Shown: positions 8,952 to 25,522, counted from the first letter of the stretch. The stretch: 32,000 nt of DNA from Nostoc sp. XA010 (GCF_020829625.1 NZ_JAIVFX010000034.1:37633-69632), one strand, 5' to 3'. Numbers and translations: made by a program. The notes: generated by a model not told the origin, from the sequence alone.

Positions 8952-9012
8952 CCAATGCCCAATGCCCAATGCCCAATCCCCAATCCCCCATGCCCAATCC
9001 CCAATGCCCAAT
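8952..9012. repeat. STRR-type heptamer tandem array (CCCAATG/CCCCAAT)
   Basis: CCAATGCCCAATGCCCAATGCCCAATCCCCAATCCCCCATGCCCAATCCCCAATGCCCAAT has a 7-bp period and sits immediately upstream of the helicase ATG. Confidence 0.9.
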
Positions 9013-9016
9013 ACTC

Positions 9017-10618: not shown

Positions 10619-11762
10619 TCGGGGAACTTCGGAGTTGGCGATTGAGTTAATTAATTATTTTCAATCAGCAGTGGGGAAGACTCAAGGTGTGCTTGAGCGG
10701 CAACTGACTGATTTTGAAGGAGATTCTACAGATTATCGGGTGAAGCGAGGGTTAGCTTATATTCTCAAAAGCAGTTTTTGCACTTTTGAGGTGGTTAGTC
10801 CTTTAGAACCACAAATGTTAAGAGAACGGGTGTTTTCGTTGGCTGCAAAATCGGTTTCTAGTCGAGAATCAACACAAGTTACTTTGAGTAAAGTTGCTGA
10901 TGAGTTAACTCAAGAACTTGAGCGGGAAGTTTTATTAGAACAGGTTCGGAATGGACTGTATGCTGATTTAGCTGAAAATAAAATTTTGACTGTTTTTGAT
11001 GCACCAACAGCGCCAGATGTGTTAAATAGATATAACTTATCTCAGGTACAGGGTGTATTTTATAAAGCCAGTCAACTTGTATTAAATGCTCATCGGAATG
11101 TTCCGGGTGAATATAAGCTGTTATTTCGCTATTTGAAGTTGTTTCAATTAATGGCTTATATTGAAGGTGATGCTGACCACGGGTTTACAATTACCATTGA
11201 TGGCCCAACGAGTTTGTTTAATCCTAGTACACGATATGGGTTAGCGATCGCTAAACTTATTCCGGCTTTACTTCACGTTACTAAATGGAGTCTTTCGTCC
11301 ATTCTCCAAACCCGTGACGCTTATACAAATAGTTGGAAAACTGGACGTTTCACTCTCAATTCAGAATGTGGTTTGGTATCCCACTATCCACCAGGCAAGC
11401 CCTACGATAGTATGCTAGAAGCATCCTTTGCTGATAAGTGGGATGCGTTAAAAAGTGGTTGGGCGTTAGAGCGAGAAGTTGATTTGATACCGATTCCCGG
11501 TAGTGTGATGATTCCCGATTTTCGCTTAGTTCATGCTGATGGACGCACCTTTTTGTTAGAAATTGTTGGTTATTGGCGACCAGAATATTTACAAAAGAAG
11601 TTTTCTCAAGTGCGGCGGGCTGGACGTGATGACTTAATTTTGGCAATTTCCGAACGACTTAATTTAGAAAAGGCGGGAGTAAAATTAGATGATGTCCCCG
11701 CCAGAATTGTTTGGTTTAAAGATAAGTTGTTGCCGAAAGCTGTGTTAGCTGTAATGGATTGA
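10548..11762 (+). CDS. DUF790 family protein (Bax1-like endonuclease partner of XPB)
   Basis: 404-aa ORF whose N-terminus MLPTDLLMHRQNGEEIIPKRL has the typical DUF790 pattern. The C-terminal nuclease-like segment is IPDFRLVH...LLEIVGYWRPEYLQKK. It follows the XPB-like helicase directly and overlaps it by 71 nt. Confidence 0.75.
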   Translation: MLPTDLLMHRQNGEEIIPKRLKIDRGTSELAIELINYFQSAVGKTQGVLERQLTDFEGDSTDYRVKRGLAYILKSSFCTFEVVSPLEPQMLRERVFSLAAKSVSSRESTQVTLSKVADELTQELEREVLLEQVRNGLYADLAENKILTVFDAPTAPDVLNRYNLSQVQGVFYKASQLVLNAHRNVPGEYKLLFRYLKLFQLMAYIEGDADHGFTITIDGPTSLFNPSTRYGLAIAKLIPALLHVTKWSLSSILQTRDAYTNSWKTGRFTLNSECGLVSHYPPGKPYDSMLEASFADKWDALKSGWALEREVDLIPIPGSVMIPDFRLVHADGRTFLLEIVGYWRPEYLQKKFSQVRRAGRDDLILAISERLNLEKAGVKLDDVPARIVWFKDKLLPKAVLAVMD

Positions 11763-11777: not shown

Positions 11778-12020
11778 ATGAAAAGTATAGAAACAATTGC
11801 CACAGTTAGCAAAGATGGTAAGATTACGGCGCAGTTACCATTGGATATTCCAGAGGGTGAACATCAAGTGGTAATAGTAATTGATGAAAAGCCTTTGGCT
11901 GAGGAAGCAGAGAGGAAAGAAAAGCGTCCTCCTCTAAACTTTCCTGTGCATAATTATGGGCCTTGGCCTGAAAATCTTTCTTTAAGACGTGAGGATATGT
12001 ATGGTGATTGGGGGCGGTAA
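11778..12020 (+). CDS. Type II antitoxin (VapB-like), partner of the PIN toxin
   Basis: 80-aa ORF with GGAGGA upstream. The N-terminal beta-rich segment IETIATVSKDGKITAQLPLDIPEGEHQVVIVIDE and the C-terminal ...LSLRREDMYGDWGR tail are typical of cyanobacterial antitoxins. It overlaps the PIN gene by 20 nt. Confidence 0.65.
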   Translation: MKSIETIATVSKDGKITAQLPLDIPEGEHQVVIVIDEKPLAEEAERKEKRPPLNFPVHNYGPWPENLSLRREDMYGDWGR

Positions 12021-12453
12021 TCCTGTTTTTCTAGACACAAATATCCTGGTGTACGCTAGTCAGATTAAGTCTCCATTTCACCAAGCTGCTATGGAGGCTA
12101 TCCAAGATTTTTATGATGCAGGGGTTGACTTGTGGATTAGCCGACAAGTGTTGCGGGAATATTTGGCTACCCTTACCCGTCCGCAACAATTTGCCAACCT
12201 ACTACCCATTGCAATAGTAATTCAGGATCTCCGCTATTTCTATAACCGCTTTCGGGTGGCTGAAGATAGTTCTCAGGTGACAGAAAGGTTACTGACACTC
12301 ATGGAGGAAATTCCTAGCGGTGGGAAGCAAGTTCATGATGCAAATATTGTCGCTACGATGCTAGTTTATGGTATTCCTCAGTTACTTACTCACAATACAA
12401 GTGATTTTGCAAGATTTTCTGGGTTAATTACTGTCTTGCCATTACAAGGTTAG
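12001..12453 (+). CDS. vapC: PIN-domain toxin (VapC family ribonuclease)
   Basis: The N-terminal VFLDTNILVYA provides the first PIN acidic residue, and HDANIVATM and THNTSDF follow later. ATG 12001 is preferred over the GTG at 11989. The gene is translationally coupled to the upstream antitoxin. Confidence 0.8.
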   Translation: MVIGGGNPVFLDTNILVYASQIKSPFHQAAMEAIQDFYDAGVDLWISRQVLREYLATLTRPQQFANLLPIAIVIQDLRYFYNRFRVAEDSSQVTERLLTLMEEIPSGGKQVHDANIVATMLVYGIPQLLTHNTSDFARFSGLITVLPLQG

Positions 12454-12532
12454 ATTGCTTGTTATTACTACTCGTGAAAATTTACTTCACGTTAAGAAAT
12501 GCAGTCTTTCGGTAATTATGCAATTCTACTGA

Positions 12533-13222
12533 TTAACCCCAAACACTTCTGCGTTCCCAATATTCAGCAACTCTTTTTTCCCACTGCTCCCAGTAATCTT
12601 TAATAACTGCTGATTCAAACCAAAATACCTCTGCTGGCATTTCTGGAATCGCTACTACCAAAAGAGCGTGCTTTAGCTGAATACCATAATCTCGATAATA
12701 CTCATTAGCTGCTCCTATGTACGCGGTAAGTTGCAGTGGATGTTCATATAAATGCTCAATTGAGCCTTTGGGTTTGTCTGCTGTTTTCCACTCACAAATA
12801 CAGGGAATACCTTGATAGCTGGCAATACAATCAACTTTGCCAGAATAACCCAAATCATGATGAAAAACAGAGCCTTCTACAAGTCTAACTGTGTCGATTT
12901 CTTGTAAAACTGGCTGAATACTCTCCCAATAGGGGCGACTCGCTTCGGGGCAAACTGGGTTTTGTCCAAGAAGGTAGCGCTCAATTTGTTTGTGTGTTTG
13001 GGTTCCCCGACGGCTAGCAGTTGTAGTAATGCGGGTAGCTTCTTCTGTACCAACACGCGTTTTCCAGTTTAATAATCTGTCTCTGTCTGCTTGTGATTTG
13101 GTGGCATTAAGTATTGTAGTCACGCTGGGAAAGCGATTTCCTTTGGCATCTACATAATATTGTTTACCATTTTCTCTTTTGGCTGTGGCATTAATTCGAG
13201 GTAGCAGTTGGGTATCATGCAT
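12533..13222 (-). CDS. PD-(D/E)XK (RecB/Cas4-like) nuclease family protein
   Basis: The 229-aa ORF has FPSVTTILN...RRGTQTHKQIERYL (N-terminal helix motif) and GYSGKVDCIASYQGIPCICEWKT (D...ExK core). Confidence 0.6.
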   Translation of the reverse strand: MHDTQLLPRINATAKRENGKQYYVDAKGNRFPSVTTILNATKSQADRDRLLNWKTRVGTEEATRITTTASRRGTQTHKQIERYLLGQNPVCPEASRPYWESIQPVLQEIDTVRLVEGSVFHHDLGYSGKVDCIASYQGIPCICEWKTADKPKGSIEHLYEHPLQLTAYIGAANEYYRDYGIQLKHALLVVAIPEMPAEVFWFESAVIKDYWEQWEKRVAEYWERRSVWG

Positions 13223-13612: not shown

Positions 13613-14032
13613 ATGGAACCTGTAACATTAACAGCTGTTGCAACTGCGATCGCTACTATAGTTTTAACTAAAGCCCTAGAAAAAACTGGCGAAAAGCTTG
13701 GAGAAGCTGCATTAGACAAAAGTCGTGAGTTAATCGAACAGCTACATAATAAAAATAAATTGCCCTTGCTAGCGGATGCGACACAGCAGCCATTAGATTA
13801 TGGCAAAGCAGTCTTGGAGTTGAAAGCAGCAGCAGACGCAGATACCGAAATTGCTCAATCAGTGCGGGAAGTCGAAGCAGCCGCAAATGCTGATCCCCAA
13901 GCGCCGAAAGTCCAGGCGCTAGCGAATGACCTAAATTCGCAACCAGCAGGCGTTATCAATTCTACAAAGTTAGCTGACTCTATTAAAAACGTCTTTCAGG
14001 GAAATACTTTCACTGGTACTAATAACTTCTGA
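13613..14032 (+). CDS. 139-aa N-terminal module of the NLR-like locus: hydrophobic head, helical region and an N/Q/G/T/F-rich tail; candidate effector domain
   Basis: The ORF reads MEPVTLTAVATAIATIVLTKALEKTGEKLGEAALDK...INSTKLADSIKNVFQGNTFTGTNNF*. It is in the same reading frame as the NB-ARC/TPR ORF and separated from it by a single TGA (14030-14032). Confidence 0.6.
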   Translation: MEPVTLTAVATAIATIVLTKALEKTGEKLGEAALDKSRELIEQLHNKNKLPLLADATQQPLDYGKAVLELKAAADADTEIAQSVREVEAAANADPQAPKVQALANDLNSQPAGVINSTKLADSIKNVFQGNTFTGTNNF

Positions 14033-14107
14033 CTACAGTCGCCCGAACAGGAACGGGTAAAGTTAAATCCCTCTACTGAAACACCACAAAATTTACCTCT
14101 GAGTGGG

Positions 14108-16687
14108 GTGGTGGAGTTTATTGGACGTGAGGCTGAATTGCAAAACCTGCATGAGATGTTGCAGGAAAATAATCAGGTGGTAATTGCTGCGATCGCTGGT
14201 ATGGGTGGACTGGGTAAAACAGAATTAGCCTTACAATATGCAATGGCTCACCGTGAAACTTACAAGGGTGGAATTTGCTGGTTGCTGGCAAAGGCTGGAG
14301 ATGTGGGCATTCAAATTGTGCAGTTTGCCAGAACTCAGCTTGATTTAAACCCACCAGAAGATTTGGATATCCTCACACAAGTGCAATACTGCTTTCGGCT
14401 TTGGCGCGAAGGTAATGTACTGCTATTATTAGACGATGTTGGAGAATATCAACAAGTTAAGCCTTACTTACCTCTGCCATCTTCTCGATTTAAAGTGTTG
14501 ATTACCACGCGCCAACACTTCGGGGCATCTATAAAGGAATTATCTCTAGATGTATTGCAAGCAGAAGCAGCGCTAGAGTTATTAAAGTCATTTTTTAAAG
14601 AAACACCACAGCGAATTGAGCAAGAATTGGCTGTTGCAAATCAGTTGTGTGAGTGGTTGGGATATTTACCTTTGGGTTTGGAATTAGTCGGGCGATATTT
14701 GGCGCGAAAACAGGATTTATCTCTAACAGAAATGTTGCGGCGGTTAGAGAACAAGCGACTAGAACAACCCGCCCTTATTAAACCAGAAGCCGATATGACA
14801 GCACAACGAGGTGTATTAGCGGCCTTTGAGTTGAGTTGGCAAGAATTAAAGGATGAAGATAAGAAGCTTGGCTGTTTGCTGAGTTTATTCGCCGCCGCAC
14901 CTATATCTTGGAAGTTGGTGGAACAGTGTTTACCAGAGTCAGACGAGGAAGAATTAGAGGAAATTAGAGATGATAAGTTGTTGAATTTGCATTTACTTCA
15001 GCGCAAAGATGAGGGAGTTTATCAACTACATCCACTGCTAAGAGAGTTTTTTCAATATAAGCTTACAGGTTTAGAACAGGCAGAGCAATTAAAGCGATCG
15101 CTTTGTCGGGTAATGGTAGCAGTTGCCAAAGATATTCCTGAAGACGCTACCCTTAAGCAAATTACTGCTGTCTCCCCTGCCATTCCTCATATAGCTGAAG
15201 TAGCGAATCATCTCATTCAATACGTCAGCGATGATGATTTAATTTCGCTATTCATCGGTAATGCTCAATTTTATCAAGGTCAGGGATTGTATAGCCAAGC
15301 TGCACCTTGGTACCAAAAGTGTCTAGAAGCTACCAAAGAACGCTTAGGAGAAGAACATCCAGATGTCGCCCAAAGCCTCAACAACCTAGCATATCTCTAC
15401 AACTCCCAAGGCAGATACAGAGAAGCCGAACCCCTTCACCAACAAGCTTTAGCACTCAGGCGCAAGCTGCTGGGAGAAGAACATCCAGATGTCGCCGTTA
15501 GCCTCAACAACCTAGCGCATCTCTACTACTCTCAAGGTAGATACAGCGAAGCCGAACCCCTTTACATCCAAGCTTTAGCACTCAGGCGCAAGCTGCTGGG
15601 TGAAGAACATCCATCTGTCGCCGTTAGCCTCAACAACCTAGCGGGACTCTACGACTCCCAAGGCAGATACAGCGAAGCCGAACCCCTTTACATCCAAGCT
15701 TTAGCACTCTGCCGCAAACTGCTGGGAGAAGAACATCCATCTGTCGCCACTAGCCTCAACAACCTAGCGTGTCTCTACGACTCCCAAGGCAGATACAGCG
15801 AAGCCGAACCCCTTTACCAACAAGCTTTAGCACTCAGCCGCAAGCTGCTGGGTGAAGAACATCCAGATGTCGCCCAAAGCCTCAACAACCTAGCGTATCT
15901 CTACAACTCCCAAGGCAGATACAGCGAAGCCGAACCCCTTTACATCCAAGCTTTAGCACTCAGGCGTCAACTGCTGGGTGAAGAACATCCCGATGTCGCC
16001 CAAAGCCTCAACAACCTAGCGTCTCTCTACGAATCCCAAGGCAGATACAGCGAAGCCGAACCCCTTTACATCCAAGCTTTAGCACTCTGGCGCAAACTGC
16101 TGGGAGAAGAACATCCATCTGTCGCCACTAGCCTCAACAACCTAGCGTATCTCTACAACTCCCAAGGCAGATACAGCGAAGCCGAACCCCTTTACATCCA
16201 AGCTTTAGCACTCAGGCGTCAACTGCTCGGAGATGAACATCCTGATGTTGCACTTAACCTCAACAACCTAGCGTGTCTCTACGACTCCCAAGGCAGATAC
16301 AGCGAAGCCGAACCACTTTCCATCCAAGCTTTAGCACTCTCGCGCAAGCTGCTGGGAGAAGAACATCCATCTGTGGCACTTAGCCTCAACAACCTAGCAC
16401 TACTCTACAACTCCCAAGGCAGATACAGCGAAGCCGAACCCCTTCACATCCAAGCTTTGGCACTCAGGCGCAAGCTGCTGGGAGAAGAACATCCATTATT
16501 TGCCCTTAGTCTCAACAATCTGGCAAAACTCTACTACTTGCAAGAACTTTATGTAGAAGCTGAACCGTTGTATCTGCAAGCTTTGGAGATTTTTGAGCAA
16601 GGATTAGGGGTGAATCATCCCCACACTGTCAAATGTCGTGAAAATTTGGCAAGTCTACGCGATCGCCTCTCCTCAAATCCAGAATAG
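14108..16687 (+). CDS. NB-ARC (STAND NTPase) plus TPR-repeat protein, bacterial NLR-like; the 5' boundary is uncertain and the protein may be 13613-16687 if the UGA is read through or is an error
   Basis: Motifs are the Walker A GMGGLGKTELA, the Walker B LLLLDDV and the GLPL-type motif GYLPLGLELVGR. A helical linker follows, then ten 42-aa TPR units and a degenerate terminal unit. The track start is GTG 14108, but the frame is open back to the TGA at 14030. Confidence 0.9.
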   Translation: MVEFIGREAELQNLHEMLQENNQVVIAAIAGMGGLGKTELALQYAMAHRETYKGGICWLLAKAGDVGIQIVQFARTQLDLNPPEDLDILTQVQYCFRLWREGNVLLLLDDVGEYQQVKPYLPLPSSRFKVLITTRQHFGASIKELSLDVLQAEAALELLKSFFKETPQRIEQELAVANQLCEWLGYLPLGLELVGRYLARKQDLSLTEMLRRLENKRLEQPALIKPEADMTAQRGVLAAFELSWQELKDEDKKLGCLLSLFAAAPISWKLVEQCLPESDEEELEEIRDDKLLNLHLLQRKDEGVYQLHPLLREFFQYKLTGLEQAEQLKRSLCRVMVAVAKDIPEDATLKQITAVSPAIPHIAEVANHLIQYVSDDDLISLFIGNAQFYQGQGLYSQAAPWYQKCLEATKERLGEEHPDVAQSLNNLAYLYNSQGRYREAEPLHQQALALRRKLLGEEHPDVAVSLNNLAHLYYSQGRYSEAEPLYIQALALRRKLLGEEHPSVAVSLNNLAGLYDSQGRYSEAEPLYIQALALCRKLLGEEHPSVATSLNNLACLYDSQGRYSEAEPLYQQALALSRKLLGEEHPDVAQSLNNLAYLYNSQGRYSEAEPLYIQALALRRQLLGEEHPDVAQSLNNLASLYESQGRYSEAEPLYIQALALWRKLLGEEHPSVATSLNNLAYLYNSQGRYSEAEPLYIQALALRRQLLGDEHPDVALNLNNLACLYDSQGRYSEAEPLSIQALALSRKLLGEEHPSVALSLNNLALLYNSQGRYSEAEPLHIQALALRRKLLGEEHPLFALSLNNLAKLYYLQELYVEAEPLYLQALEIFEQGLGVNHPHTVKCRENLASLRDRLSSNPE
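15344..16603 (+). repeat. Ten tandem 126-bp (42-aa TPR) units with very high nucleotide identity inside the NLR CDS
   Basis: Units start at 15344, 15470, 15596, 15722, 15848, 15974, 16100, 16226, 16352 and 16478. The consensus is LGEEHPxVAxSLNNLAxLYxSQGRYSEAEPLxxQALALxRxL. Confidence 0.95.
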
Positions 16688-16799
16688 AATACATGAGGCT
16701 ATAAATTTACAGGTTTTGTGCAAAGCGTACCGTAATAAAACTAAAAATAGCGATCGCCTACACTAAAATTCATCTTGAATTAAGTAAAAATGCCTGATT

Positions 16800-17060
16800 A
16801 CTTATTCAAAAGCTGCTTTTACTTTCTCAAAAGCAGCTTTTAATTTCGCATTTCAGTGTTTTCCACAAACAAAAGCTGCTTTTACTTCTTCAAAAGCAGC
16901 TTTTAATCTCGCATTTTAGTGTTTTCCACAAACAAAAGCAGCTTTTATTTCTTCAAAAGCAGCTTTTAATCTCGCATTTTAGTGTTTTCCACAAACAAAA
17001 GCAGCTTTTACTTTCTCATTTTAGTGTTTTCCGCAAGCAAAAGCAGCTTTTACTTACTCA
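16800..17060. repeat. Intergenic tandem array (63-bp unit made of 21-bp sub-periods) carrying eight copies of the palindrome AAAAGC(A/T)GCTTTT
   Basis: The palindromes start at 16808, 16829, 16871, 16892, 16934, 16955, 16997 and 17039. All spacings are 21 or 42 bp. Confidence 0.9.
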
Positions 17061-17158: not shown

Positions 17159-17225
17159 TCTACAAAAGAAGTGTAAATCGATAAGCGGATCGCTGTTGTC
17201 GTCAGACATCGCTTCTAGGCAAATC

Positions 17226-17420
17226 TTAAAGGCTATTCCATTCTTCTAGCGTGATTTCCCGCTCTAGAATCACCTCAACTTCCCGAATCATCAGCCGCAA
17301 TTGTGGTACAGAATACTCATCATTAGAGGGAATAGTTAGACGATGTTGCCCATAAACCATAAATTGATGTCTTGTTCCAGAATAAGGCCCCTCAAACCCA
17401 ATCCGTCGTAATTTTCTCAC
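17226..17420 (-). CDS. hicA: HicA-like (YcfA family) mRNA interferase toxin
   Basis: The 64-aa ORF reads (V)RKLRRIGFEGPYSGTRHQFMVYGQHRLTIPSNDEYSVPQLRLMIREVE. It uses a GTG start, because an in-frame TAG lies 27 nt upstream. It starts 14 nt after the hicB-like stop. Confidence 0.65.
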   Translation of the reverse strand: MRKLRRIGFEGPYSGTRHQFMVYGQHRLTIPSNDEYSVPQLRLMIREVEVILEREITLEEWNSL

Positions 17421-17433
17421 AAAATCCCGACGC

Positions 17434-17706
17434 TTACAGGGTATCTATCGGCTCAAGAGTCGGCTCCTTATTGAGGTCAATATTATCAATTATTGGTAGA
17501 TAATGTCCCAGCTTTAACCCAAGCAAAATCCAGTCTTCCAGTGTTGAGCGTAATTCATCCTCACACTCGCGTAAAGTCGATGCAAAAGCTATCACTCCTT
17601 TGCAAACAGGAATTCTACCTGCAAATATACCATCTTCTAACTTGTCATAAATTGCCTGGGCGATCGCTCGGTCAACATAGTCGCTTAGAATAAACTTTAT
17701 CGTCAT
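17434..17706 (-). CDS. hicB: HicB-like (UPF0150 family) antitoxin, short form without an obvious DNA-binding extension
   Basis: The 90-aa ORF reads MTIKFILSDYVDRAIAQAIYDKLEDGIFAGRIPVCKGVIAFASTLRECEDELRSTLEDWILLGLKLGHYLP. It lies directly upstream of the hicA-like gene. Confidence 0.65.
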   Translation of the reverse strand: MTIKFILSDYVDRAIAQAIYDKLEDGIFAGRIPVCKGVIAFASTLRECEDELRSTLEDWILLGLKLGHYLPIIDNIDLNKEPTLEPIDTL

Positions 17707-17902
17707 GAAATCTCGCGTTGTGCTACCAATTTAATCTTACGTTAAAAAATTGATGACTATCGCCAACAAAATAAAGAAATTCCCATAGGTGGTTCTTTAC
17801 TGGAACAAATTTCTATAGAGGTTTGAGTGTGTCAAACGAAAATAATTAATTAAATATTTAGAGGATCTTTTAAAAGTCCTTTCGTCGGTAGCAAAACATT
17901 AT

Positions 17903-17980
17903 CGATCCCCCCAATTCCCCTTAAAAAGGGGGGCTTTAATTCCGGTTCCCCCCTTTTTAAGGGGGGGTTAGGGGGGATCT
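17903..17980. mobile_element. G/C-run double-hairpin element with terminal inverted repeats
   Basis: The sequence is GATCCCCCC...CCCCTTAAAAAGGGGGG...CCCCCCTTTTTAAGGGGGGG...GGGGGGATC. It forms two hairpins bracketed by the inverted ends GATCCCCCC and GGGGGGATC. Confidence 0.6.
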
Positions 17981-18063
17981 GAAAGTGTTTAAACTGACAA
18001 TGAAATACTTTTCAAACAACCTCTTAGAAGAAAAAGGCTTTTATGACCATAAAATCATTTGTA

Positions 18064-19572
18064 TCAAGTCCAATCACTTGAACCTTCTTGGATTCCTCTT
18101 TCCATTTCCTCTAAAGTTGCACTTTTCATTCCTGGACGGTGTAAAAGCCCTGATAAGCTTTGAATAGGAACAGAATCCCCCACTGAAACATTGCTGAATT
18201 CAGAATTCTGAATTCTGGATTCTTCTTCAACATTTAAACTCTCACTTTTTTTAAGATATTGTCGAAAATATAAACGATATAATTCACACGCAACAGTAGT
18301 GCGATCGCCTTCTAAATTAATTAGCCCCATACTCTGTAATTTACATACTAATGCTGGCTCTAATTGCACATAATTTGTAGCGTTAATTACCTCATAAAAA
18401 GCATTTTTCAATTCTGGCTCATCTTGTAGCACTAACACAAACTGCCTTAAATACTCGTGATAAATTCCTGCTTCTGTGGGTGCTTGTTGCAATAGCTGTT
18501 CTAAATTTCCTTCTAGTCCCCCTCTACCCACAAGGTGATAAAAAGCCAATCGCAGCAAATAAGGATATCCTCCCACCATTGCCATCAAACTATCGACATT
18601 TTTCCCATCTGTCCAATCCAAGCCGTGACGTAGTGCCAAATCCAGCACCTGCTCTCTTGTAAAGGGAGATAACTTAATCGGTAAACCAATATTAAATGGT
18701 GATTGAGTCAGTTTTATCGGAACAATAATTTCCGTTGAATAAACCAGAACTAAACGCAGTTTTTGCCAAACTTCTACACCTTTGGCTTGTTCATACCACG
18801 ATCGCAGCAATAATAACAATTCTTCAAAAAGTTTTTGATGCTCAAACACCCAGTCCACCTCATCCAATATCAAAACAAGAGGACTTTCCAGCGCCGACAG
18901 TAAATACTCTTGGAAATAGATAAAGCAACTGACTTTGCTACCCATATCTTCATTCCAATAATCATTGAGTTTTGGTTCTAGCTGTAACTCCCGACTCACC
19001 TTTGCACAGAACCAGCGCAAAAATTTATCCAAACTGGCAAATACTGCTTTATCTGCTTGCTGAAAGTTCAACGTCACGGTGCAAAAGCCTTGATTGTTAG
19101 CGCGTGCAAGCAACCGCAAAATTAGAGAGCTTTTCCCCATCTTCTTTGGTGCTTTGATGCAGATAAGACTTCCAGGTTTAGCTATTTCTGTGTAGACAAC
19201 TTCTTCAATTGGCGGGCAAGGGATGTAAAATCTGGAATTAAGAGATACTGGGCCACTAGGAAATTCTAAGGATATAGCCGTGGCTGCTTTGTTGAATTCC
19301 TTAACTAATTGCTGATGTGGTTTGCTAAGACGATGATTTTCTAAAGTCTGGCGAAAGTTTGATTTATTTATAGGTTCTTTGCAAAAAACACTTAGTAATT
19401 GCCATAAATGAGCAGCAATTTTCCTGACACCTTCCTCATCGTAGTCAGCTTCACAGGCTATATTCGTGTAGGTTTCTCCTTCCCACGAAGAACGCAATAT
19501 AATCTCTTGACGTGTCGTTAAACCGGTTGCTTGACTGGCTTTTAGTAGCAAAACTACTTCATCTATAGTCAT
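18064..19572 (-). CDS. AAA-like (AAA_35 type) P-loop ATPase with an N-terminal HTH-like module; STAND-like signalling ATPase
   Basis: 502-aa ORF. The N-terminal LTTRQEIILRSSWEGETYTNIA...VRKIAAHLWQLLS is HTH-like. FYIPCPPIEEVVYTEIAKPGSLICIKAPKKMGKSSLILRLL is the P-loop and LVLILDEVD is the Walker B. The C-terminal tail contains a GAATTCT heptamer array. Confidence 0.7.
   Translation of the reverse strand: MTIDEVVLLLKASQATGLTTRQEIILRSSWEGETYTNIACEADYDEEGVRKIAAHLWQLLSVFCKEPINKSNFRQTLENHRLSKPHQQLVKEFNKAATAISLEFPSGPVSLNSRFYIPCPPIEEVVYTEIAKPGSLICIKAPKKMGKSSLILRLLARANNQGFCTVTLNFQQADKAVFASLDKFLRWFCAKVSRELQLEPKLNDYWNEDMGSKVSCFIYFQEYLLSALESPLVLILDEVDWVFEHQKLFEELLLLLRSWYEQAKGVEVWQKLRLVLVYSTEIIVPIKLTQSPFNIGLPIKLSPFTREQVLDLALRHGLDWTDGKNVDSLMAMVGGYPYLLRLAFYHLVGRGGLEGNLEQLLQQAPTEAGIYHEYLRQFVLVLQDEPELKNAFYEVINATNYVQLEPALVCKLQSMGLINLEGDRTTVACELYRLYFRQYLKKSESLNVEEESRIQNSEFSNVSVGDSVPIQSLSGLLHRPGMKSATLEEMERGIQEGSSDWT
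18194..18223. repeat. STRR-type heptamer array (GAATTCT/GAATTCA) within the 3' end of the AAA_35 CDS
   Basis: CTGAATTCAGAATTCTGAATTCTGGATTCT is translated on the minus strand as ...RIQNSEFSN... Confidence 0.75.
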
Positions 19573-20011
19573 TACTGATCGGCTCTAAAGCATGAAATTT
19601 TCTCACACCATTCTTCTTTGCAACTCAATGTAGCCTGCTTTGTCTGGATAGCAGCCAGTCGTTTTCCAAAAAGCTACAAACAAGGCTTGACAATTTCTTT
19701 GTATCCTAAAAGATTTTACGTGACTTAATCATAAAATTTTTTTTACAAATTTTTTCGAGTTTTTAGGTAATTATATGTGATTTGAACTACTTTTTTTAGA
19801 CATATCTTAGAATGTAGATGCACACAATGGAGCTATTTTTTTAAATCGCAACTGCGATCGCATTACCTTTTTCTAAATTCCATCCAAATTGATGATATGG
19901 GCAGTGACAGCCTAATCAATTAAGTAGACGATTTATCCATAACTGGATCGTCAGGGTGCTAAGACAGCGTAGAGAGAGCTACAGGATATCTTCCTCATCG
20001 TACCAGCAGCT

Positions 20012-21538
20012 ATGCATATCGAAAAACCCGCTACCCATGAACCGGAAGCTTTGTCAGTACAAGATTCTCAGAGTTTCCCAGAATCAAAAGACTTATCTCA
20101 AGAAAATTTAGATCCTTGTCAATGCTCACAAGCCGCCTTACAAATGGCCTTAATAGCCAGTGGCTTGGGGTTGTGGGATTGGAATCTAATAACTAACAAA
20201 ACCTATTATGATCCTCACTGGAAGGGCATTTTGGGGTATGAAGTAGACGAAATCGAAAATGAGCATAAATCCTTTGAGCAACTTGTACATCCACAGGATT
20301 TACCAAGAATTCGCCAGGTGTTGCATGATTATCTGGAAGGATGCACACCTGTGTTTGAAGCCGAATTGCGAATGTTGACTAAATCCGGGGAGTGGAAGTG
20401 GATTTTGACTTGTGGGAAAGTATTTCAGTGGGATGAATTCGGTAAACCAATGCGGATGGCGGGGACGCACAAAGATATTACTCAAGATAAAGCGATGTCT
20501 ACGACGGGCTGCGCCTACGCTACTCAACAATACCAACTATTTGAACAACTCCAGTCTACCGAAGACCAAGTTAGGGAAAAATCACAGCAGCTAGAAACTA
20601 CCCTAGAAGAACTCAAATATACCCAAAAGCAGTTATTGCAGAACCAGAAAATGGCTAACCTCGGTCAACTGGTGGCGGATATGACTAACGAAATTAACAA
20701 CCCCGTTAGTTTCATCTACGGCAATCTCCATCCTGCGAGTCAATATGCTGAAGATTTAATCAGAATCATTGAACTTTACCAACATCACTATCCCACACCG
20801 ACACCAGTTATAGCTTTACATCTGCAACGCCTCGACCTTGGTTTCGTGAAGAAAGATTTTTTGAAATTGCTGTGGTCAATGCGAGCCGGATCTGAGCGCG
20901 TTAAAGAAATTGTTTTCGCCTTGCAGAATTTTTCAACCTCTGACGAAGGTCAAACAAAAAAGGTTGACCTGCATAAAGGACTTGATAGTGTTCTAAGGAT
21001 TTTGCAGCATCGTTTGAAAGAAAAGCCTGATAGAACCGGGATTGAAGTAATTAAAAACTTTGGGAAATTGCCTTTAATTGAGTGTTACCCTGGTGAACTA
21101 AATCAGGTATTCATGAACATCTTGACTAATGCCATTGATGCCTTAGAAGAAAGGATGAAACATGATTATTCTTTTACTCCCAATATTTTTATTCATACAG
21201 AAATTATTAGCAGCCATTTATCATTAGTCAAGAGTAATGAAGTTTTAGTAAATGATAAACTACTAGGAAAAAAACACAAAATTATAATTCGCATTTCTGA
21301 TAATGGTCAAGGCATACTTCCTCATATCAAACGACATATATTTGAACCATTTTTTACGACCAAACCAGTAGGCAAAAGTCAAGGGTTAGGGCTATCAATT
21401 AGTCGAGAAATTATAGTTGAAAAACATCAAGGTAAACTTAAGTGTAATTCTCAATTAGGTCAAGGGACAGAGTTGATCATTGAAATGAATACAACAGCAA
21501 GACACTATGCCGCAATTAGGAAATACGCCAGTTTTTAG
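20012..21538 (+). CDS. PAS-domain histidine-kinase-like protein (DHp and HATPase present, canonical H-box histidine replaced by Asn)
   Basis: 508-aa ORF with a PAS region (GLGLWDWNLITNKTYYDPHWKGILGY...GTHKDIT). The DHp segment is LGQLVADMTNEINNPVSFIYGNL. Other motifs are the N-box NILTNAIDAL, the G1 box DNGQGI and the G2 box GLGLSIS. Confidence 0.85.
   Translation: MHIEKPATHEPEALSVQDSQSFPESKDLSQENLDPCQCSQAALQMALIASGLGLWDWNLITNKTYYDPHWKGILGYEVDEIENEHKSFEQLVHPQDLPRIRQVLHDYLEGCTPVFEAELRMLTKSGEWKWILTCGKVFQWDEFGKPMRMAGTHKDITQDKAMSTTGCAYATQQYQLFEQLQSTEDQVREKSQQLETTLEELKYTQKQLLQNQKMANLGQLVADMTNEINNPVSFIYGNLHPASQYAEDLIRIIELYQHHYPTPTPVIALHLQRLDLGFVKKDFLKLLWSMRAGSERVKEIVFALQNFSTSDEGQTKKVDLHKGLDSVLRILQHRLKEKPDRTGIEVIKNFGKLPLIECYPGELNQVFMNILTNAIDALEERMKHDYSFTPNIFIHTEIISSHLSLVKSNEVLVNDKLLGKKHKIIIRISDNGQGILPHIKRHIFEPFFTTKPVGKSQGLGLSISREIIVEKHQGKLKCNSQLGQGTELIIEMNTTARHYAAIRKYASF
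20492..20520. repeat. Small dispersed repeat, copy inside the second kinase CDS (reverse orientation)
   Basis: GCGATGTCTACGACGGGCTGCGCCTACGC is the reverse complement of the family consensus and is translated as AMSTTGCAYA. Confidence 0.8.
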
Positions 21539-21641
21539 GTAAGTCGAACCAAGATTTACAGATCGCAATGGAAACGATAAAATTTGCCTCAAATCCTTGT
21601 CCATCGATGTGCCTAACTCAATGGATTATTGTAGGTTTGAG

Positions 21642-22688: not shown

Positions 22689-23197
22689 AAATCCTTCTTG
22701 TTTTTATTCGTTCAGTAGCTACAATGTGAGAATTTTATCTATTTGCTATTATTCCCAAATTAGGACTGTTCTGAACACTTAAATATGAAATATATAGGAA
22801 TCCGGTTTGATTCCTGAAATTATTTGCGTGGTGCGCGAAGCACGATAGGCTAGGAGTGGAGAGTAGGAAAGAAGAATTTTTGAAAAAATTCCTTACACTT
22901 GAAGCTCAGGTGTAGCTAATGCCCATCCTACTAACCTAGATTTTAAAAATTAGACTTATATAGTCTTGTTAAGTTTATATCATCTTGCTATATAAATTAA
23001 TGTAGGTAGAACAGGTAAATTAGAATACCTTACCTTAGCCACACTTAAACAGACAGTTAAAACAGCAGATGGTAGACCATCAATGTCAGAATACTGAGTC
23101 ATAGGATGGGAAAATAAAGGTGAGTAATGTCCATCCCCAAATTTGCTGGACTATTTACCCAAGACAGATAAACAAAAAATTTTATCAGTCAAAATCT

Positions 23198-23794: not shown

Positions 23795-23871
23795 ACACAC
23801 TATGGTTATGGAAATAGGGAGACACGGGGACTAATGGCCAATGATCAATGACTCTTTTTTAAACTAAAAAA

Positions 23872-25308: not shown

Positions 25309-25314
25309 TTGGAA

Positions 25315-25351
25315 GAATAGGGAGTGGGGAGTAGGGAGTAGGGAATAGGGA
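25315..25351. repeat. STRR-type heptamer array (GGGAGTA)
   Basis: GAATAGGGAGTGGGGAGTAGGGAGTAGGGAATAGGGA lies directly after the pyrFE stop. Confidence 0.85.
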
Positions 25352-25399
25352 AGATTTTTCTCATGTACTTACCCTTGGTTATATCTTGCACCTGCCTAC

Positions 25400-25522
25400 T
25401 TTCTCGCCAGAGAATAAATTCTCTGGCTAATAGCACAAGTCCACTCAATTTGAGTATAAACCTTACCCAGTCTTGAATAGATAGACTTTAGCTAGTAGCC
25501 CCAGAATTCATGCTGAGGCGGT
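25400..25522. mobile_element. MITE-like multi-hairpin element, same family as 13428-13552
   Basis: The sequence runs CTCGCC, the hairpin AGAGAA-TAAA-TTCTCT, GGCTAATAGC ... GCTAGTAGCC ... GGCGG, giving an overall long imperfect palindrome. Confidence 0.55.

What the first reader, a model, noticed from the sequence alone, without database searches (positions are those of the whole stretch)
15344..16603. Ten near-identical 126-bp TPR units with substitutions on about eight codons, a signature of a rapidly diversifying sensor
The units are in perfect 126-bp register and most codons are identical even at synonymous sites. Amino-acid differences cluster at fixed positions of the 42-aa unit. These are position 7 (D/S), 10 (Q/V/T/L), 17 (Y/H/G/C/S/L/K), 20 (N/Y/D/E), 32 (H/Y/S), 33 (Q/I), 39 (R/C/S/W) and 41 (K/Q). 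High internal repeat conservation with a few hypervariable surface positions is the pattern described for fungal and some bacterial NLR sensor repeats. It implies repeat shuffling or concerted evolution with diversifying selection on a ligand-binding surface. The same property makes the region prone to assembly collapse or expansion.
Basis: seen in the sequence. Interest (0 to 1): 0.65.

Follow-up and report, generated by a model that had tools for sequence, protein, structure and literature searches.

The report
Diversifying TPR sensor of cyanobacterial NLR
The repeat array is the ligand-sensing end of an immune-receptor-like (NB-ARC–TPR) protein of a Nostoc cyanobacterium, a known kind of fast-evolving sensor. 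The more surprising feature is that the receptor seems to be joined to an upstream cell-death domain by a conserved leaky stop codon.

Summary
There are nine near-identical 126-bp units (15344-16477, 83-95% nt identity, no indels). The tenth unit is only 60-64% identical and, with a degenerate unit on the other side, caps the array.

The array is the C-terminal KLC-type 42-residue TPR domain of an 859-aa NB-ARC–TPR (NLR-like STAND) protein of a Nostoc.
- The same positions are hypervariable in 70 homologues.
- Positions 10, 17 and 20 show non-synonymous diversity 1.5-1.9 times the synonymous level.
- Positions 10, 17, 20 and 39 correspond to cargo-contacting residues of kinesin light chain 1.
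- Unit number ranges from 3 to 17 among relatives.
- Units recombine, and they are homogenised within arrays and across paralogues.

This regime is already described for fungal NLRs and noted for bacterial ones, so the array is a new member of a known kind.

One thing was noticed in passing. The 139-aa Bell-like ("MEPVT…") gene upstream ends in UGA-C, followed 8 nt later by a hairpin supported by covariation. The NLR follows in the same frame. This holds in all 56 related NB-ARC loci and in 16 NACHT or other loci, some of which code without any start codon. Programmed read-through is the likely explanation. It is untested and I found no description of it.

The parts
15344..16477 (+). Nine highly internally conserved 126-bp (42-aa) KLC-type TPR units. 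This is the core of the finding.
   Evidence: 83-95% nt identity, no indels, hypervariable codons 7, 10, 17, 20, 32, 33, 39, 41. Pfam TPR_10/TPR_12 at E = 1e-157 and 2e-176.
15218..15343 (+). Degenerate N-terminal capping TPR unit.
   Evidence: In register with the array but divergent. The unit HMM scores it 10 bits, against 96-100 bits for the core units. It is helical in the AF2 model.
16478..16684 (+). Degenerate tenth unit (16478-16603) plus a C-terminal capping half unit. The stop codon is at 16685-16687.
   Evidence: 60-64% nt identity to the core units. Unit HMM score 52 bits.
14108..15217 (+). NB-ARC NTPase module (P-loop GMGGLGKT at 14198-14221) plus a helical linker. It lies in the same ORF as the TPR array (14108-16687, 859 aa from the first GTG).
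   Evidence: Pfam NB-ARC E = 2.8e-17 over aa 8-219. 1775 homologues at E <= 1e-10, all named ones from Nostoc and other Nostocales.
13613..14032 (+). 139-aa all-alpha Bell-like protein gene (N-terminus MEPVTLTAVATAIATIVL…) ending in TGA at 14030-14032. It is in the same frame as the NLR ORF.
   Evidence: The protein is 100% identical in L001 despite about 17 synonymous nt differences. 296 and 426 homologues, nearly all free-standing at 130-160 aa. AF2 gives an all-helical model. The 'MEPIS' N-terminal motif of Bell/Hell/Bab domains is described.
14033..14107 (+). 25-codon open linker between the TGA and the first GTG of the NLR ORF (LQSPEQERVKLNPSTETPQNLPLSG).
   Evidence: In all 56 related NB-ARC loci the linker is open, in frame and a multiple of 3 nt long (66, 69, 72, 75 or 93), and its peptide is conserved.
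14041..14058 (+). Conserved RNA hairpin (GCCCG-AACAGGAA-CGGGU) beginning 8 nt after the UGA.
   Evidence: RNAalifold predicts it independently. 97.5% of cells are paired, against 8-39% in the slid controls. Three of five pairs carry compensatory changes (30 cells). There is no Rfam match.

Best explanation
The array is the ligand-sensing domain of an NLR-like STAND ATPase (NB-ARC + 42-residue KLC-type TPRs) of a Nostoc cyanobacterium.

What is shown:
- Nine near-identical units sit between degenerate caps and are predicted to form a continuous TPR solenoid.
- The units are kept alike by unequal crossing-over and gene conversion, both within the array and between paralogous NLR genes.
- Unit number changes among relatives.
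- Three groove-lining helix-A positions (10, 17, 20) carry an excess of amino-acid diversity. Position 39 on the inner face of helix B is about as variable, but its excess is not significant.

What is inferred from homology to KLC1-cargo complexes: an extended peptide or protein segment lies in the concave groove. The invariant Asn13/Asn14 ladder holds its backbone, and the variable residues read its side chains. Reshuffling units therefore creates new specificities.

What is inferred from the general behaviour of NLR/STAND proteins: ligand binding releases NB-ARC autoinhibition and drives oligomerisation. That in turn activates an N-terminal death module.

What is inferred here from comparative genomics: the death module is the Bell-like 139-aa protein encoded directly upstream. 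It is joined to the NLR in a minority of translation events by read-through of a conserved UGA-C stop that is followed by a hairpin. The locus would then make much free Bell-like protein and a little Bell-NB-ARC-TPR sensor.
For: Architecture. The AF2 model has pLDDT 88.7, and its TM-score normalised to the target is 0.78 against the KLC1-JIP1 and KLC1-TorsinA complexes 6FUZ and 6FV0.

Hypervariable positions:
- They are reproduced family-wide.
- Positions 10, 17 and 20 have pN/pS above 1.
- The other 34 codons have dN/dS of 0.05.
- Positions 10, 17, 20 and 39 map to KLC1 ligand contacts, and positions 13/14 to the Asn pairs.

Recombination and concerted evolution:
- Four-gamete failures and a mosaic unit.
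- Nearest neighbour in the same array 110/279 against 7.5 expected.
- Within-array scaffold pS of 0.156 is lower than the NB-ARC pS of 0.205-0.245 to the closest orthologues. L005 has a 63%-identical NB-ARC but TPR scaffold pS of 0.208, while L006 has an 89%-identical NB-ARC but TPR pS of 0.92.

Repeat-number variation:
- 3-17 units in complete ORFs.
- A clean 2-unit in-register difference between otherwise identical strains that share the small protein P0170.

Modular NLR family: close NB-ARC homologues carry EAD4, CHAT or a short N-terminal motif instead.

Read-through module:
- All 56 NB-ARC loci plus 16 NACHT-HEAT or other loci are in frame through a single TGA.
- 76 of 81 Bell-like genes end in TGA-C, against 3.5% of background ORFs.
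- The hairpin shows covariation.
- In five NACHT-type loci, codons 13-71 after the TGA are under purifying selection (pN/pS 0.10 for codons 13-30, 0.09 for codons 51-80), yet there is no ATG, GTG or TTG before codon 72.
- One natural TGA-to-TGG variant gives a continuous ORF.
- Rare direct Bell-NTPase fusions exist.
Against: - No ligand, no phenotype and no expression data exist for this locus.
- PADLOC finds no known defence NTPase model.
- Four of the eight window-variable positions (7, 32, 33, 41) are not among the KLC1 contacts named in the text I read. Positions 33 and 41 show pN/pS below 1.
- The pN/pS test uses uncorrected p-distances, a pooled synonymous rate and bootstrap over non-independent, recombining units.
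- I could not obtain model coordinates, so 'concave face' rests on secondary structure, helical phase and homology, not on measured geometry.
- The unit count of this assembly could not be checked with reads.
- For read-through, no protein evidence exists.
- In the window's own NB-ARC class a GTG start is available at linker codons 26 and 27.
- Linker dN/dS in that class is only weakly lower than in shifted frames: 0.54 against 0.64-0.69.
Confidence: 0.75

Rival explanations
1. Two separate proteins with no recoding. The Bell-like protein terminates at the UGA. The NLR starts independently at GTG 14108 or 14111 as an 'N-less' NB-ARC-TPR, and acts on the free Bell-like protein in trans. Alternatively, ribosomes terminate and re-initiate. 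On this view the hairpin regulates coupling, mRNA stability or processing.
For: All 296 and 426 homologues are called as free-standing small proteins. A GTG lies at linker codons 26 or 27 in most NB-ARC-type loci. Linker dN/dS is only weakly below the shifted-frame controls. The small gene stays under purifying selection where the NLR is deleted in L001, so the short form works without a cis NLR.
Against: This view does not explain several observations:
- The frame is kept in 72 loci across at least three NTPase classes, with five linker lengths that are all multiples of 3.
- The rarest stop context, TGA-C, is nearly universal.
- Five NACHT-type loci have 59 or more selected codons, including the NACHT motif IYVPLGLVERK, with no canonical start.
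- L037, L052 and L078 have no canonical start in the linker.
Confidence: 0.3
2. The repeat variability is neutral or structural. The TPR array would be a generic scaffold or regulatory domain, as in AfsR-like or MalT-like regulators. The 'hypervariable' sites would simply be unconstrained surface positions in recently duplicated units.
For: Positions 7, 32 and 39 have pN/pS of about 1, and positions 33 and 41 are below 1. dN/dS over the whole unit is 0.47. NCBIfam shows weak similarity of the NB-ARC part to AfsR and HaaT.
Against: Positions 10, 17 and 20 exceed the synonymous rate with bootstrap intervals above 1, carry 12-14 amino acids each, and often differ by two or three nucleotides per codon. 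The same positions are the cargo-contacting positions in KLC1. The scaffold is under very strong constraint, with dN/dS of 0.05. The NCBIfam scores for AfsR and HaaT are far below their cut-offs.
Confidence: 0.1
3. The array's length or order in this window is an assembly artefact, produced by collapse, expansion or a chimera of paralogous arrays.
For: No reads of the source strain were found and no identical protein is on record. Related assemblies break at these arrays. At 859 aa the protein is longer than all 120 database homologues listed. The 2-unit difference among otherwise identical strains could itself be a collapse.
Against: - All nine units are distinct, with differences every 10-20 nt and a longest exact repeat of 98 nt.
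- The ORF is intact and has proper N- and C-caps.
- Independent genomes carry complete arrays of 9-17 units, e.g. L014 and L047 with 11, L046 with 14, L023 and L062 with 17.
- An artefact would not create the position-specific variation, which is also seen family-wide.
Confidence: 0.07
4. The UGA encodes selenocysteine and the hairpin is a bacterial SECIS element.
For: There is an in-frame UGA with a hairpin immediately downstream.
Against: No homologue has Cys at this position, and the one sense variant has Trp (TGG). The site lies in a poorly conserved inter-domain linker with no redox motif. The hairpin has no match among the Rfam families. Whether these genomes have Sec machinery was not tested.
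Confidence: 0.04
5. The variable codons are produced by targeted hypermutation, for example by a diversity-generating retroelement.
For: Variation is confined to a few codons in an otherwise near-identical sequence.
Against: No reverse transcriptase appears among the window's 20 ORFs of 100 aa or more, 17 of which were scanned against Pfam, and I saw no obvious template repeat. The variable columns show no adenine bias: the consensus base is A in 11 of 35 variable columns, against 37 of 126 overall. Variants are shared and recombined among units and among genomes.
Confidence: 0.02

Closest known systems
Highly internally conserved (HIC) TPR, ANK and WD repeats of fungal NLRs (Podospora anserina NB-ARC-TPR genes such as Pa_2_10340; Dyrka et al. 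2014, PMC4986451)
   Same: - NB-ARC + 42-residue TPR (PF13374) architecture.
- 80-90% unit identity.
- Repeat-number polymorphism.
- Exchange of repeats within and between paralogues.
- Positive selection at a few positions mapped on a KLC2-based model (compared).
   Different: This is a bacterial (Nostoc) gene. Mean aa identity of 86% just meets the 85% criterion of that paper. Synonymous divergence between units is appreciable (pS 0.156). The N-terminal module is a Bell-like domain behind a stop codon, not HET, sesB or PFD.
Bacterial NLR-like NB-ARC/TPR proteins of filamentous Actinobacteria and Cyanobacteria, paired with Bell-domain proteins through BASS amyloid motifs (Dyrka et al. 2020, bioRxiv 10.1101/2020.01.06.895854; Bab/Agp, bioRxiv 10.1101/2024.11.07.622273)
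   Same: A small alpha-helical protein with a hydrophobic 'MEP…' N-terminus is encoded immediately upstream of, and collinear with, an NB-ARC-TPR gene in Nostocaceae. That paper already notes 80-90% internal repeat identity in bacterial NLRs.
   Different: The annotated NLR has no N-terminal motif matching the C-terminus of the small protein. Instead the two ORFs are in frame through a single UGA-C plus a hairpin. The accession of the Nostoc punctiforme NIES-2108 member (RCJ37669.1) is not in that paper's supplementary tables.
Kinesin light chain TPR domain (42PR class; PDB 6FUZ, 6FV0, 3NF1) and the Podospora 42PR structures 4Y6C and 4Y6W
   Same: - Sequence E-value of 4e-60 to KLC1 and 1e-28 to 4Y6W/4Y6C.
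- About 44% identity and target-normalised TM-score 0.78 to peptide-bound KLC1.
- The same 42-residue unit with HP at the start of helix A and the LNNLA Asn pair.
   Different: KLC has six diverged repeats and a fixed function. Here nine near-identical repeats vary at exactly the KLC cargo-contact positions.
Programmed stop-codon read-through signals (a leaky stop plus a 3' structure about 8 nt downstream, as in retroviral gag-pol; Qbeta coat/A1 UGA read-through). This comparison rests on my own knowledge.
   Same: A weak stop context (UGA-C), an 8-nt spacer, a conserved downstream stem-loop, an in-frame downstream ORF, and a short and a long product from one message.
   Different: It is a chromosomal bacterial immune-type gene family. 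The structure is a simple 5-bp hairpin with an 8-11-nt purine-rich loop. No experimental evidence exists. The searched literature and Rfam returned nothing on it.

Membership tests
NLR-like STAND NTPase (NB-ARC + superstructure-forming repeats) | NB-ARC/AP-ATPase domain with a P-loop | tested here: met
   Pfam NB-ARC E = 2.8e-17 over aa 8-219. GMGGLGKT is at aa 31-38 and LLLLDDV is present.
NLR-like STAND NTPase (NB-ARC + superstructure-forming repeats) | C-terminal TPR, WD, ANK or LRR repeat sensor domain in the same polypeptide | tested here: met
   Eleven TPR units and a half unit follow the NB-ARC in one ORF.
NLR-like STAND NTPase (NB-ARC + superstructure-forming repeats) | N-terminal effector or adaptor domain | tested here: inconclusive
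   The ORF from its first GTG has only about 7 residues before the NB-ARC. A Bell-like domain lies upstream in frame behind a UGA. Close homologues carry EAD4, CHAT or a short motif, fused directly.
NLR-like STAND NTPase (NB-ARC + superstructure-forming repeats) | Ligand-induced oligomerisation and an immune or cell-death output | not testable with these tools
   This needs biochemistry and genetics. PADLOC has no matching NTPase model.
HIC repeats under concerted evolution (fungal-NLR type, Dyrka 2014) | At least 85% identity between repeats over at least 100 aa | tested here: met
   Mean aa identity is 86.4% (79-95%) over 378 aa. Each unit is 86-95% identical to the consensus. This is borderline.
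HIC repeats under concerted evolution (fungal-NLR type, Dyrka 2014) | Repeat-number polymorphism among alleles or strains | tested here: met
   There are 3-17 units among complete related ORFs. A 2-unit in-register difference separates otherwise identical strains that share the small protein P0170. This was not tested for the window's own strain.
HIC repeats under concerted evolution (fungal-NLR type, Dyrka 2014) | Recombination or exchange of repeats within and between loci | tested here: met
   58 of 120 four-gamete incompatibilities and a mosaic unit 6. Nearest-neighbour excess. NB-ARC and TPR divergence are decoupled.
HIC repeats under concerted evolution (fungal-NLR type, Dyrka 2014) | Positive diversifying selection at positions of the binding surface | tested here: met
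   pN(site)/pS(global) is 1.54-1.89 with intervals above 1 at positions 10, 17 and 20, and about 1 at 7, 32 and 39. Positions 10, 17, 20 and 39 are KLC1 cargo contacts. HyPhy-type models were not available.
KLC-type 42-residue TPR (42PR; Pfam TPR_10/TPR_12) | 42-residue period with a helix A / helix B hairpin, and sequence and fold similarity to KLC | tested here: met
   Period 126 nt. TPR_10 matched 1-42/42. KLC1 E = 4e-60. AF2 places helix A at unit positions 6-21 and helix B at 25-42. Target-normalised TM-score 0.78 to 6FUZ.
Bell-domain / BASS amyloid-signalling gene pair (Dyrka 2020) | Small alpha-helical protein with a conserved hydrophobic N-terminal ('MEPIS'-type) helix, adjacent to and collinear with an NLR gene | tested here: met
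   MEPVTLTAVATAIATIVL… at the N-terminus. All-helical AF2 model with pLDDT 71. The motif is described. Adjacency holds in 72 loci. There is no significant sequence or fold match to any solved structure.
Bell-domain / BASS amyloid-signalling gene pair (Dyrka 2020) | A shared amyloid motif of about 20-25 aa at the C-terminus of the Bell protein and the N-terminus of the NLR | tested here: not met
   The stretch upstream of the NB-ARC is the Pro-rich linker LQSPEQERVKLNPSTETPQNLPLSG. By eye it bears no resemblance to the small protein's C-terminus …IKNVFQGNTFTGTNNF. The NLR would carry the same C-terminal stretch only through read-through.
Programmed stop-codon read-through | Conserved leaky stop context and a conserved 3' RNA structure at a short fixed distance | tested here: met
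   TGA-C in 76 of 81 genes, against 3.5% background. A 5-bp hairpin 8 nt downstream shows covariation: 97.5% paired, 3 of 5 pairs compensatory.
Programmed stop-codon read-through | A downstream ORF kept in frame and under protein-level selection, with no start codon of its own | tested here: met
   72 loci are in frame. In NACHT group A the first canonical start is codon 72, while codons 13-30 and 51-80 have pN/pS of 0.10 and 0.09. In the window's own class a GTG exists, so the test is inconclusive there.
Programmed stop-codon read-through | Detection of the extended protein | not testable with these tools
   This needs proteomics, western blots, reporters or ribosome profiling.
Known anti-phage NLRs (Avs / bNACHT, PADLOC models) | A match of the NTPase module to a curated defence-system model | tested here: not met
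   PADLOC matches only generic TPR models.
FxSxx-COOH system TPR protein (NCBIfam NF040586) | Full-length equivalog match and an FxSxx-COOH/FxsB neighbourhood | tested here: not met
   The score of 394 exceeds the cut-off of 300, but the best of the three matched stretches covers only TPR repeats (profile 441-733 of 830). None of the window's Pfam matches is a radical-SAM (FxsB-type) family. The name would be a repeat-driven false positive.

The most novel reading that the evidence does not exclude
The NLR is not a free-standing gene. It would be the read-through extension of the upstream Bell-like cell-death gene. A conserved recoding cassette (UGA-C, an 8-nt spacer and a covarying hairpin) would sit between a pore-forming-type death domain and interchangeable STAND sensors (NB-ARC-TPR, NACHT-HEAT and others) across Nostocales. 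One message would then yield abundant free executioner and rare executioner-sensor fusion. This would be a translational, fixed-ratio alternative to the two-gene amyloid-motif (BASS) coupling and to all-in-one NLRs. It would be a programmed stop-codon read-through in bacterial chromosomal immune-type genes of a kind I could not find described.
Probability: 0.55. Interest if true: 0.8.

Novelty: new member of a known kind. Interest (0 to 1): 0.45.

Why it matters
The TPR array itself extends to a cyanobacterium, with quantitative support, an evolutionary regime so far documented mainly in fungi. In that regime, repeat shuffling plus diversifying selection at ligand-contact positions acts as a generator of new receptor specificities. 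This supports the idea that NLR-type sensors of multicellular bacteria evolve like eukaryotic immune receptors. It also gives a concrete prediction of which four residues per repeat set specificity.

The practical warnings are these:
- Such arrays break or collapse in short-read assemblies.
- They attract repeat-driven false family names.
- Gene callers truncate these NLRs.

If the read-through module is real, it would reveal a new way of wiring a sensor to its death effector. It would also provide a compact natural recoding signal in bacteria. Many Nostocales 'hypothetical 140-aa proteins' and 'N-less' or N-terminally truncated NLR and NACHT annotations would then need correcting.

Tried and rejected
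- **Reads of the source strain.** No run holds more than 17% of the sampled words. The best four runs give only 60-170-nt unitig pieces over the array. The assembly could therefore not be verified.
- **Exact-protein look-up of the NLR.** Not on record.
- **3-D mapping.** The structure tools return no coordinates and none are available offline. Face assignment had to rest on secondary structure, helical phase and KLC1 contact lists.
- **Marold et al. 2015 (the 42PR structure paper).** Not held.
- **Small protein against solved structures.** No significant match by sequence profile or by fold: best E = 1.6, with Bcl-2-family hits only at probability 0.1 or less. It matched no family in Pfam, NCBIfam or PADLOC.
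- **Single-sequence folding of the hairpin.** Unremarkable, z = -0.8. The support comes from covariation only. A second small stem, GAC…GUC, which includes part of the UGA, is not conserved.
- **Linker dN/dS in the NB-ARC class.** Weak and not decisive.
- **DGR-type hypermutation.** Rejected: no RT among the scanned ORFs, no template repeat seen, no A bias.
- **FxSxx_TPR equivalog name.** Rejected as repeat-driven.
- **Literature.** Three searches for read-through combined with NLR, Bell or cyanobacteria found nothing relevant. Rfam found nothing at the hairpin.

Full report
**1. What is in the sequence**

Tandem Repeats Finder reports one period-126 array at 15347-16518, with 9.3 copies, 89% matches and score 1776. 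It lies inside a single + strand ORF, 14108-16687 (859 aa from the first GTG). Cutting from 15344 in 126-nt steps gives in-frame 42-aa units.

- Units 0-8 (15344-16477) are 83-95% identical pairwise at nt level (mean 88.8%) and 79-95% at aa level (mean 86.4%).
- There are no indels and no two units are identical.
- 20 of 42 codons are invariant at the nucleotide level.
- The tenth unit (16478-16603) is only 60-64% identical.
- With a degenerate unit at 15218-15343 and a terminal half unit at 16604-16684, it caps the array.

20 of the 35 variable nucleotide columns fall in those eight codons (Fisher p = 2e-10).

**2. What the protein is**

Pfam finds an NB-ARC domain at aa 8-219 (E = 2.8e-17; P-loop GMGGLGKT). 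It also finds eleven TPR_10/TPR_12 units (E = 1e-157 and 2e-176).

- The TPR region matches the kinesin light chain TPR domain at E = 4e-60 and the Podospora '42PR' structures 4Y6W and 4Y6C at about 1e-28.
- An AlphaFold model of aa 331-859 is confident (pLDDT 88.7). It is an uninterrupted helix-turn-helix solenoid, with helix A at unit positions 6-21 and helix B at 25-42.
- It superposes on peptide-bound KLC1 (6FUZ and 6FV0; TM-score normalised to the target 0.78; 43-44% identity).
- HIP1 sites (GCGATCGC) and the homologue list place the window in Nostoc. 1775 proteins match at E <= 1e-10, and all named ones are from Nostoc and other Nostocales.
- The closest genome fragment found (L001) is about 94% identical in flanking DNA.

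This is an NB-ARC-TPR, NLR-like STAND protein. That architecture is known to be abundant in filamentous cyanobacteria.

**3. Is the variation position-specific beyond this one gene?**

Using an HMM of the window's units, I extracted 337 units from 70 homologous proteins. Mean within-protein entropy per position correlates with the window's profile (Spearman rho 0.84).

- The four most variable positions are 17, 20, 39 and 10. Each has 1.35-1.46 bits, varies in 96-99% of proteins, and shows 16-18 residue types when pooled.
- They are followed by positions 7, 32, 37, 40 and 41.

The pattern is a property of the family, not a quirk of this array.

**4. Selection**

Within the window (Nei-Gojobori):
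- dN/dS is 0.47 over all codons.
- It is 0.05 over the 34 scaffold codons.
- It is 1.42 over the eight variable codons. That last figure is circular, because the codons were chosen for being variable.

For a less circular test I pooled 120 unique 'window-type' units at nucleotide level from 25 loci. I compared each codon's non-synonymous diversity with the pooled synonymous diversity.

| Position | pN(site)/pS(global) | 95% bootstrap interval |
|---|---|---|
| 10 | 1.89 | 1.72-2.07 |
| 17 | 1.78 | 1.62-1.98 |
| 20 | 1.54 | 1.38-1.69 |
| 7, 32, 39 | 0.94-1.07 | not above 1 |
| 33 | 0.56 | below 1 |
| 41 | 0.68 | below 1 |
| scaffold | mostly below 0.3 | below 1 |

Many alleles at positions 7, 10 and 33 differ by two or three nucleotides (GAT/TCT; CAA/GTT/ACT/CTT; CAA/ATC). 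These are therefore old, maintained variants rather than fresh point mutations.

Caveats: the distances are uncorrected p-distances, the synonymous rate is pooled, and the bootstrap runs over related, recombining units. HyPhy-type models were not available.

**5. Where the variable residues sit**

No coordinates could be retrieved, so I mapped by homology.

- The alignment and the statement that KLC1 Ile209 is 42PR position 2 give: unit position = KLC1 residue - 204 - 42(n-1), where n is the number of the KLC1 TPR motif.
- The residues reported to contact the JIP1 and TorsinA peptides then map as follows.

| KLC1 residue(s) | Unit position |
|---|---|
| K340 | 10 |
| N259, N301, N343 | 13 |
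| N302, N344, N386 | 14 |
| V305, L347 | 17 |
| L348 | 18 |
| R266 | 20 |
| K309, N351 | 21 |
| Y313 | 25 |
| R327 | 39 |

The family's four most variable positions (10, 17, 20, 39) are thus side-chain-reading contacts in the closest solved complex. The invariant N13/N14 are the asparagine pairs that hydrogen-bond the peptide backbone.

By helical phase (my inference), positions 7, 10, 13, 14, 17, 20 and 21 lie within a 140-degree arc of helix A. That is opposite the packing residues 9, 12, 15, 16 and 19. Positions 32 and 39 lie on the inward stripe of helix B (28, 32, 35/36, 39). Positions 33 and 41 face elsewhere.

The 'ligand-binding surface' claim is well supported for 10, 17, 20 and 39. 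It is plausible for 7 and 32. It is not supported for 33 and 41.

**6. Shuffling, concerted evolution and copy number**

- **Recombination within the array.** 58 of 120 pairs of informative sites fail the four-gamete test. Unit 6 is a clear mosaic of unit 3 (5' part) and unit 4 (3' part).
- **Homogenisation.** Among 279 units from 44 loci, a unit's nearest neighbour at scaffold columns is in its own array 110 times, against 7.5 expected. For the window the figure is 7 of 9.
- **Synonymous divergence.** Within-array scaffold pS (0.156) is lower than NB-ARC pS to even the closest orthologues (0.205-0.245).
- **Decoupling from the NB-ARC.** L005 has a 63%-identical NB-ARC but nearly the same TPR units (scaffold pS 0.208, pN 0.013). 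L006 has an 89%-identical NB-ARC but unrelated units (pS 0.92). This is the signature of repeat exchange between paralogues, as described for fungal NLR families.
- **Copy number.** Complete related ORFs carry 3 to 17 units.
- **Strain-level difference.** Three strains share the small protein P0170. One of them (L082) is a complete 6.41-Mb chromosome, which suggests the Nostoc/Anabaena PCC 7120 lineage. Their NLRs are identical and, for L081 and L083, so is the 4.5 kb upstream. The only difference is a clean in-register 84-aa (two-unit) gap in L083, whose junction lies inside a unit. It reflects either unequal recombination or an assembly collapse in that draft.

**7. Assembly**

I could not verify this assembly.

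- No run holds the stretch and the exact protein is on record nowhere else.
- In other datasets the array is covered only by 60-170-nt unitigs at very high word depth.
- Eight related contigs end at or in the array, and many database homologues are 'partial'.

Several points argue against an artefact in the window:
- All units differ, and the longest exact repeat is 98 nt.
- The ORF is intact and capped.
- Arrays of 9-17 units occur in independent genomes.

**8. Comparison with what is known**

The combination tested here is exactly the regime documented for Podospora and other fungi (Dyrka et al. 2014). It consists of NB-ARC with 42-residue TPRs, at least 85% internal identity, repeat-number polymorphism, inter-paralogue exchange, and positive selection at positions modelled on KLC.

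Dyrka et al. 2020 explicitly note that bacterial NLRs also have WD and TPR repeats of 80-90% internal identity. [quoted passage not shown]

The array is therefore a new, quantitatively characterised member of a known kind. It matches no curated defence model. An NCBIfam 'FxSxx_TPR' equivalog hit above its cut-off is driven by the repeats alone.

**9. How it most likely works**

- **Shown:** the architecture, the evolutionary regime, and the homology of the variable sites to KLC ligand contacts.
- **Inferred:** an extended peptide or protein segment binds the groove. Binding releases the NB-ARC switch and causes oligomerisation, and an N-terminal module executes the response.

Close NB-ARC homologues carry EAD4, CHAT or a roughly 50-aa N-terminal motif fused directly. 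This is the modularity typical of NLRs. The window's NLR has no such domain if it starts at its first GTG.

**10. Noticed in passing: the upstream gene and a candidate recoding signal**

*The upstream gene.* ORF 13613-14032 encodes a 139-aa protein.
- In L001 it is 100% conserved despite about 17 synonymous differences.
- It has 296 close homologues and 426 representatives at 50% identity, nearly all free-standing at 130-160 aa.
- It is predicted to be all-helical.
- It begins MEPVTLTAVATAIATIVL…, which fits the 'MEPIS' hydrophobic N-terminal helix. That helix characterises Bell, Hell and Bab membrane-targeting death domains and the N-termini of Avast2 and some bNACHTs.

*The frame relationship.* The gene ends in TGA (14030-14032) and the NLR ORF is in the same frame 75 nt later. 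In 80 related loci:
- All 56 loci with this NB-ARC family downstream are in frame through that single TGA. Linker lengths are 66, 69, 72, 75 or 93 nt and the linker peptide is conserved.
- 16 further loci have NACHT-HEAT-NCC-H, other NACHT or other NB-ARC ORFs of 242-1228 aa in frame behind the same junction.

*The stop context.* The stop is TGA-C in 76 of 81 genes. TGA-C ends only 3.5% of other long ORFs in the same loci. From my own knowledge, UGA-C is the weakest RF2 context in E. coli.

*The hairpin.*
- Eight nucleotides downstream lies a 5-bp hairpin (window 14041-14058).
- RNAalifold predicts it independently.
- 97.5% of cells are paired, against 8-39% in the slid controls.
- Three of five pairs show compensatory changes.
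- A 14-nt pattern taken from the stop and the bases that follow it, up to the start of the stem, occurs 78 times in 0.8 Mb, against 3 expected. 77 of those occurrences are at the end of a Bell-like ORF.

*Coding without a start codon.* This is the most telling point. In five NACHT-type loci the first ATG, GTG or TTG after the TGA is codon 72.
- Codons 13-30 and 51-80 have pN/pS of 0.10 and 0.09.
- The NACHT motif IYVPLGLVERK lies at codons 46-56.
- This is coding sequence with no start codon, so ribosomes must arrive through the UGA.

*Supporting variants.* One natural variant has TGG in place of TGA, giving a continuous ORF. Rare direct Bell-NTPase fusions exist.

*What is missing.* No paper or Rfam family describing this was found. 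In the window's own class a GTG start is available and the linker's coding signal is weak. For this locus, read-through is therefore an inference from the conserved module. There is no protein evidence anywhere. I put the probability at about 0.55.

**11. Verdict**

- The array is a new member of a known kind, with moderate interest.
- The locus deserves attention mainly for the conserved UGA-hairpin junction between a death domain and interchangeable STAND sensors. If confirmed experimentally, that junction would be a new way of coupling sensor and effector, and a new bacterial recoding signal.

Noticed in passing
window 13613-14107 (TGA at 14030-14032; hairpin 14041-14058); loci L001-L083: A Bell-like 139-aa gene ends in UGA-C. 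A covarying hairpin follows 8 nt downstream, and the NLR ORF follows in the same frame. The arrangement is conserved in 72 related loci in front of NB-ARC-TPR, NACHT-HEAT and other STAND genes. Some of those genes are under protein-level selection with no start codon. This is a candidate programmed read-through.
   Followed up: yes
window 14224-16799 and 17199-26831, compared with L001: In the closest related genome fragment (about 94% nt identity) the NLR body is missing from just after the P-loop to just after the stop, and about 840 bp of unrelated sequence stands in its place. The 9.6 kb at 17199-26831 is also absent. That stretch holds the AAA_35 gene, a PAS histidine kinase, an Npun_R2821-family gene, cytochrome b561, an OMPdecase/PRTase gene and an AI-2E transporter. 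The small upstream gene stays intact. The locus is a presence/absence hotspot.
   Followed up: partly
L081/L082 versus L083 (strains sharing small protein P0170), NLR at about 5029-7215: Assemblies identical in the 4.5 kb upstream (L081 vs L083) and elsewhere in the NLR protein differ by a clean in-register deletion of exactly two TPR units (84 aa), with the junction inside a unit. It is either unequal recombination between strains or an assembly collapse in the draft.
   Followed up: partly
P0127 (ENA contig of 1147 nt): This is a natural variant of the small gene with TGG (Trp) in place of the TGA. It gives one ORF that runs through the linker into the NB-ARC start and then diverges (…QENNQCRPKPQQPS), possibly through a frameshift.
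   Followed up: partly
L032, positions 462 and 5430: Two complete Bell-UGA-hairpin-NB-ARC-TPR modules lie in tandem about 5 kb apart in [Scytonema hofmanni] UTEX 2349. Several genomes carry two or more paralogous modules, for example L005/L036, L033/L039 and L045/L064.
   Followed up: partly
window 16798-17060: Nested tandem repeats of 63, 42 and 21 bp lie about 110 bp downstream of the NLR stop. They are built from a near-palindromic AAAAGCAGCTTTT core plus 'TTTAGTGTTTTCCACAAA'. They are partly conserved in L001 (80%). Only sub-threshold Rfam hits were found and the function is unknown.
   Followed up: partly
window 14108-16687 (NCBIfam scan): The protein scores above the curated cut-off of the equivalog NF040586 'FxSxx-COOH system TPR protein' (394 against 300 bits). 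The score comes from three repeat stretches, the best of which matches only TPR repeats of the profile. Automated annotation pipelines would probably mis-name it.
   Followed up: yes
P0021, P0013, P0113 (homologues 73-84% identical in the NB-ARC region): Close homologues of the same NB-ARC-TPR carry different directly fused N-termini: EAD4 (PF19959), a CHAT fragment, or a roughly 50-aa motif (MNDRPNSENIQQSAFENVQARDITV…) that resembles an amyloid-signalling motif. This shows N-terminal module swapping within one clade.
   Followed up: partly
window 8969-11762: An XPB/ERCC3-like helicase (XPB_DRD + ResIII + Helicase_C) overlaps a DUF790 gene by 71 nt. The helicase resembles PADLOC PbeA models at E = 2e-52. 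Short tandem repeats lie at its start (CCAATGC x8.7 at 8952-9012) and near its 3' end (GGACAAGG x5.9 at 10383-10429; AATCCAA x4.4 at 10510-10540).
   Followed up: no
window 11989-13222 and 18064-19572: A PIN-domain gene (+) and a PD-(D/E)XK nuclease gene (-) lie just upstream of the Bell-like gene. An AAA_35 'AAA-like domain' protein gene (-, E = 5e-139) lies downstream. Together with the NLR this looks like a defence or variable island.
   Followed up: no
window 15001-17000: The array is richer in G+C (0.49 against about 0.42 in the flanks) and has a strongly negative GC skew (-0.17 to -0.22). The repeated codon set of the unit probably accounts for this, rather than foreign origin.
   Followed up: no
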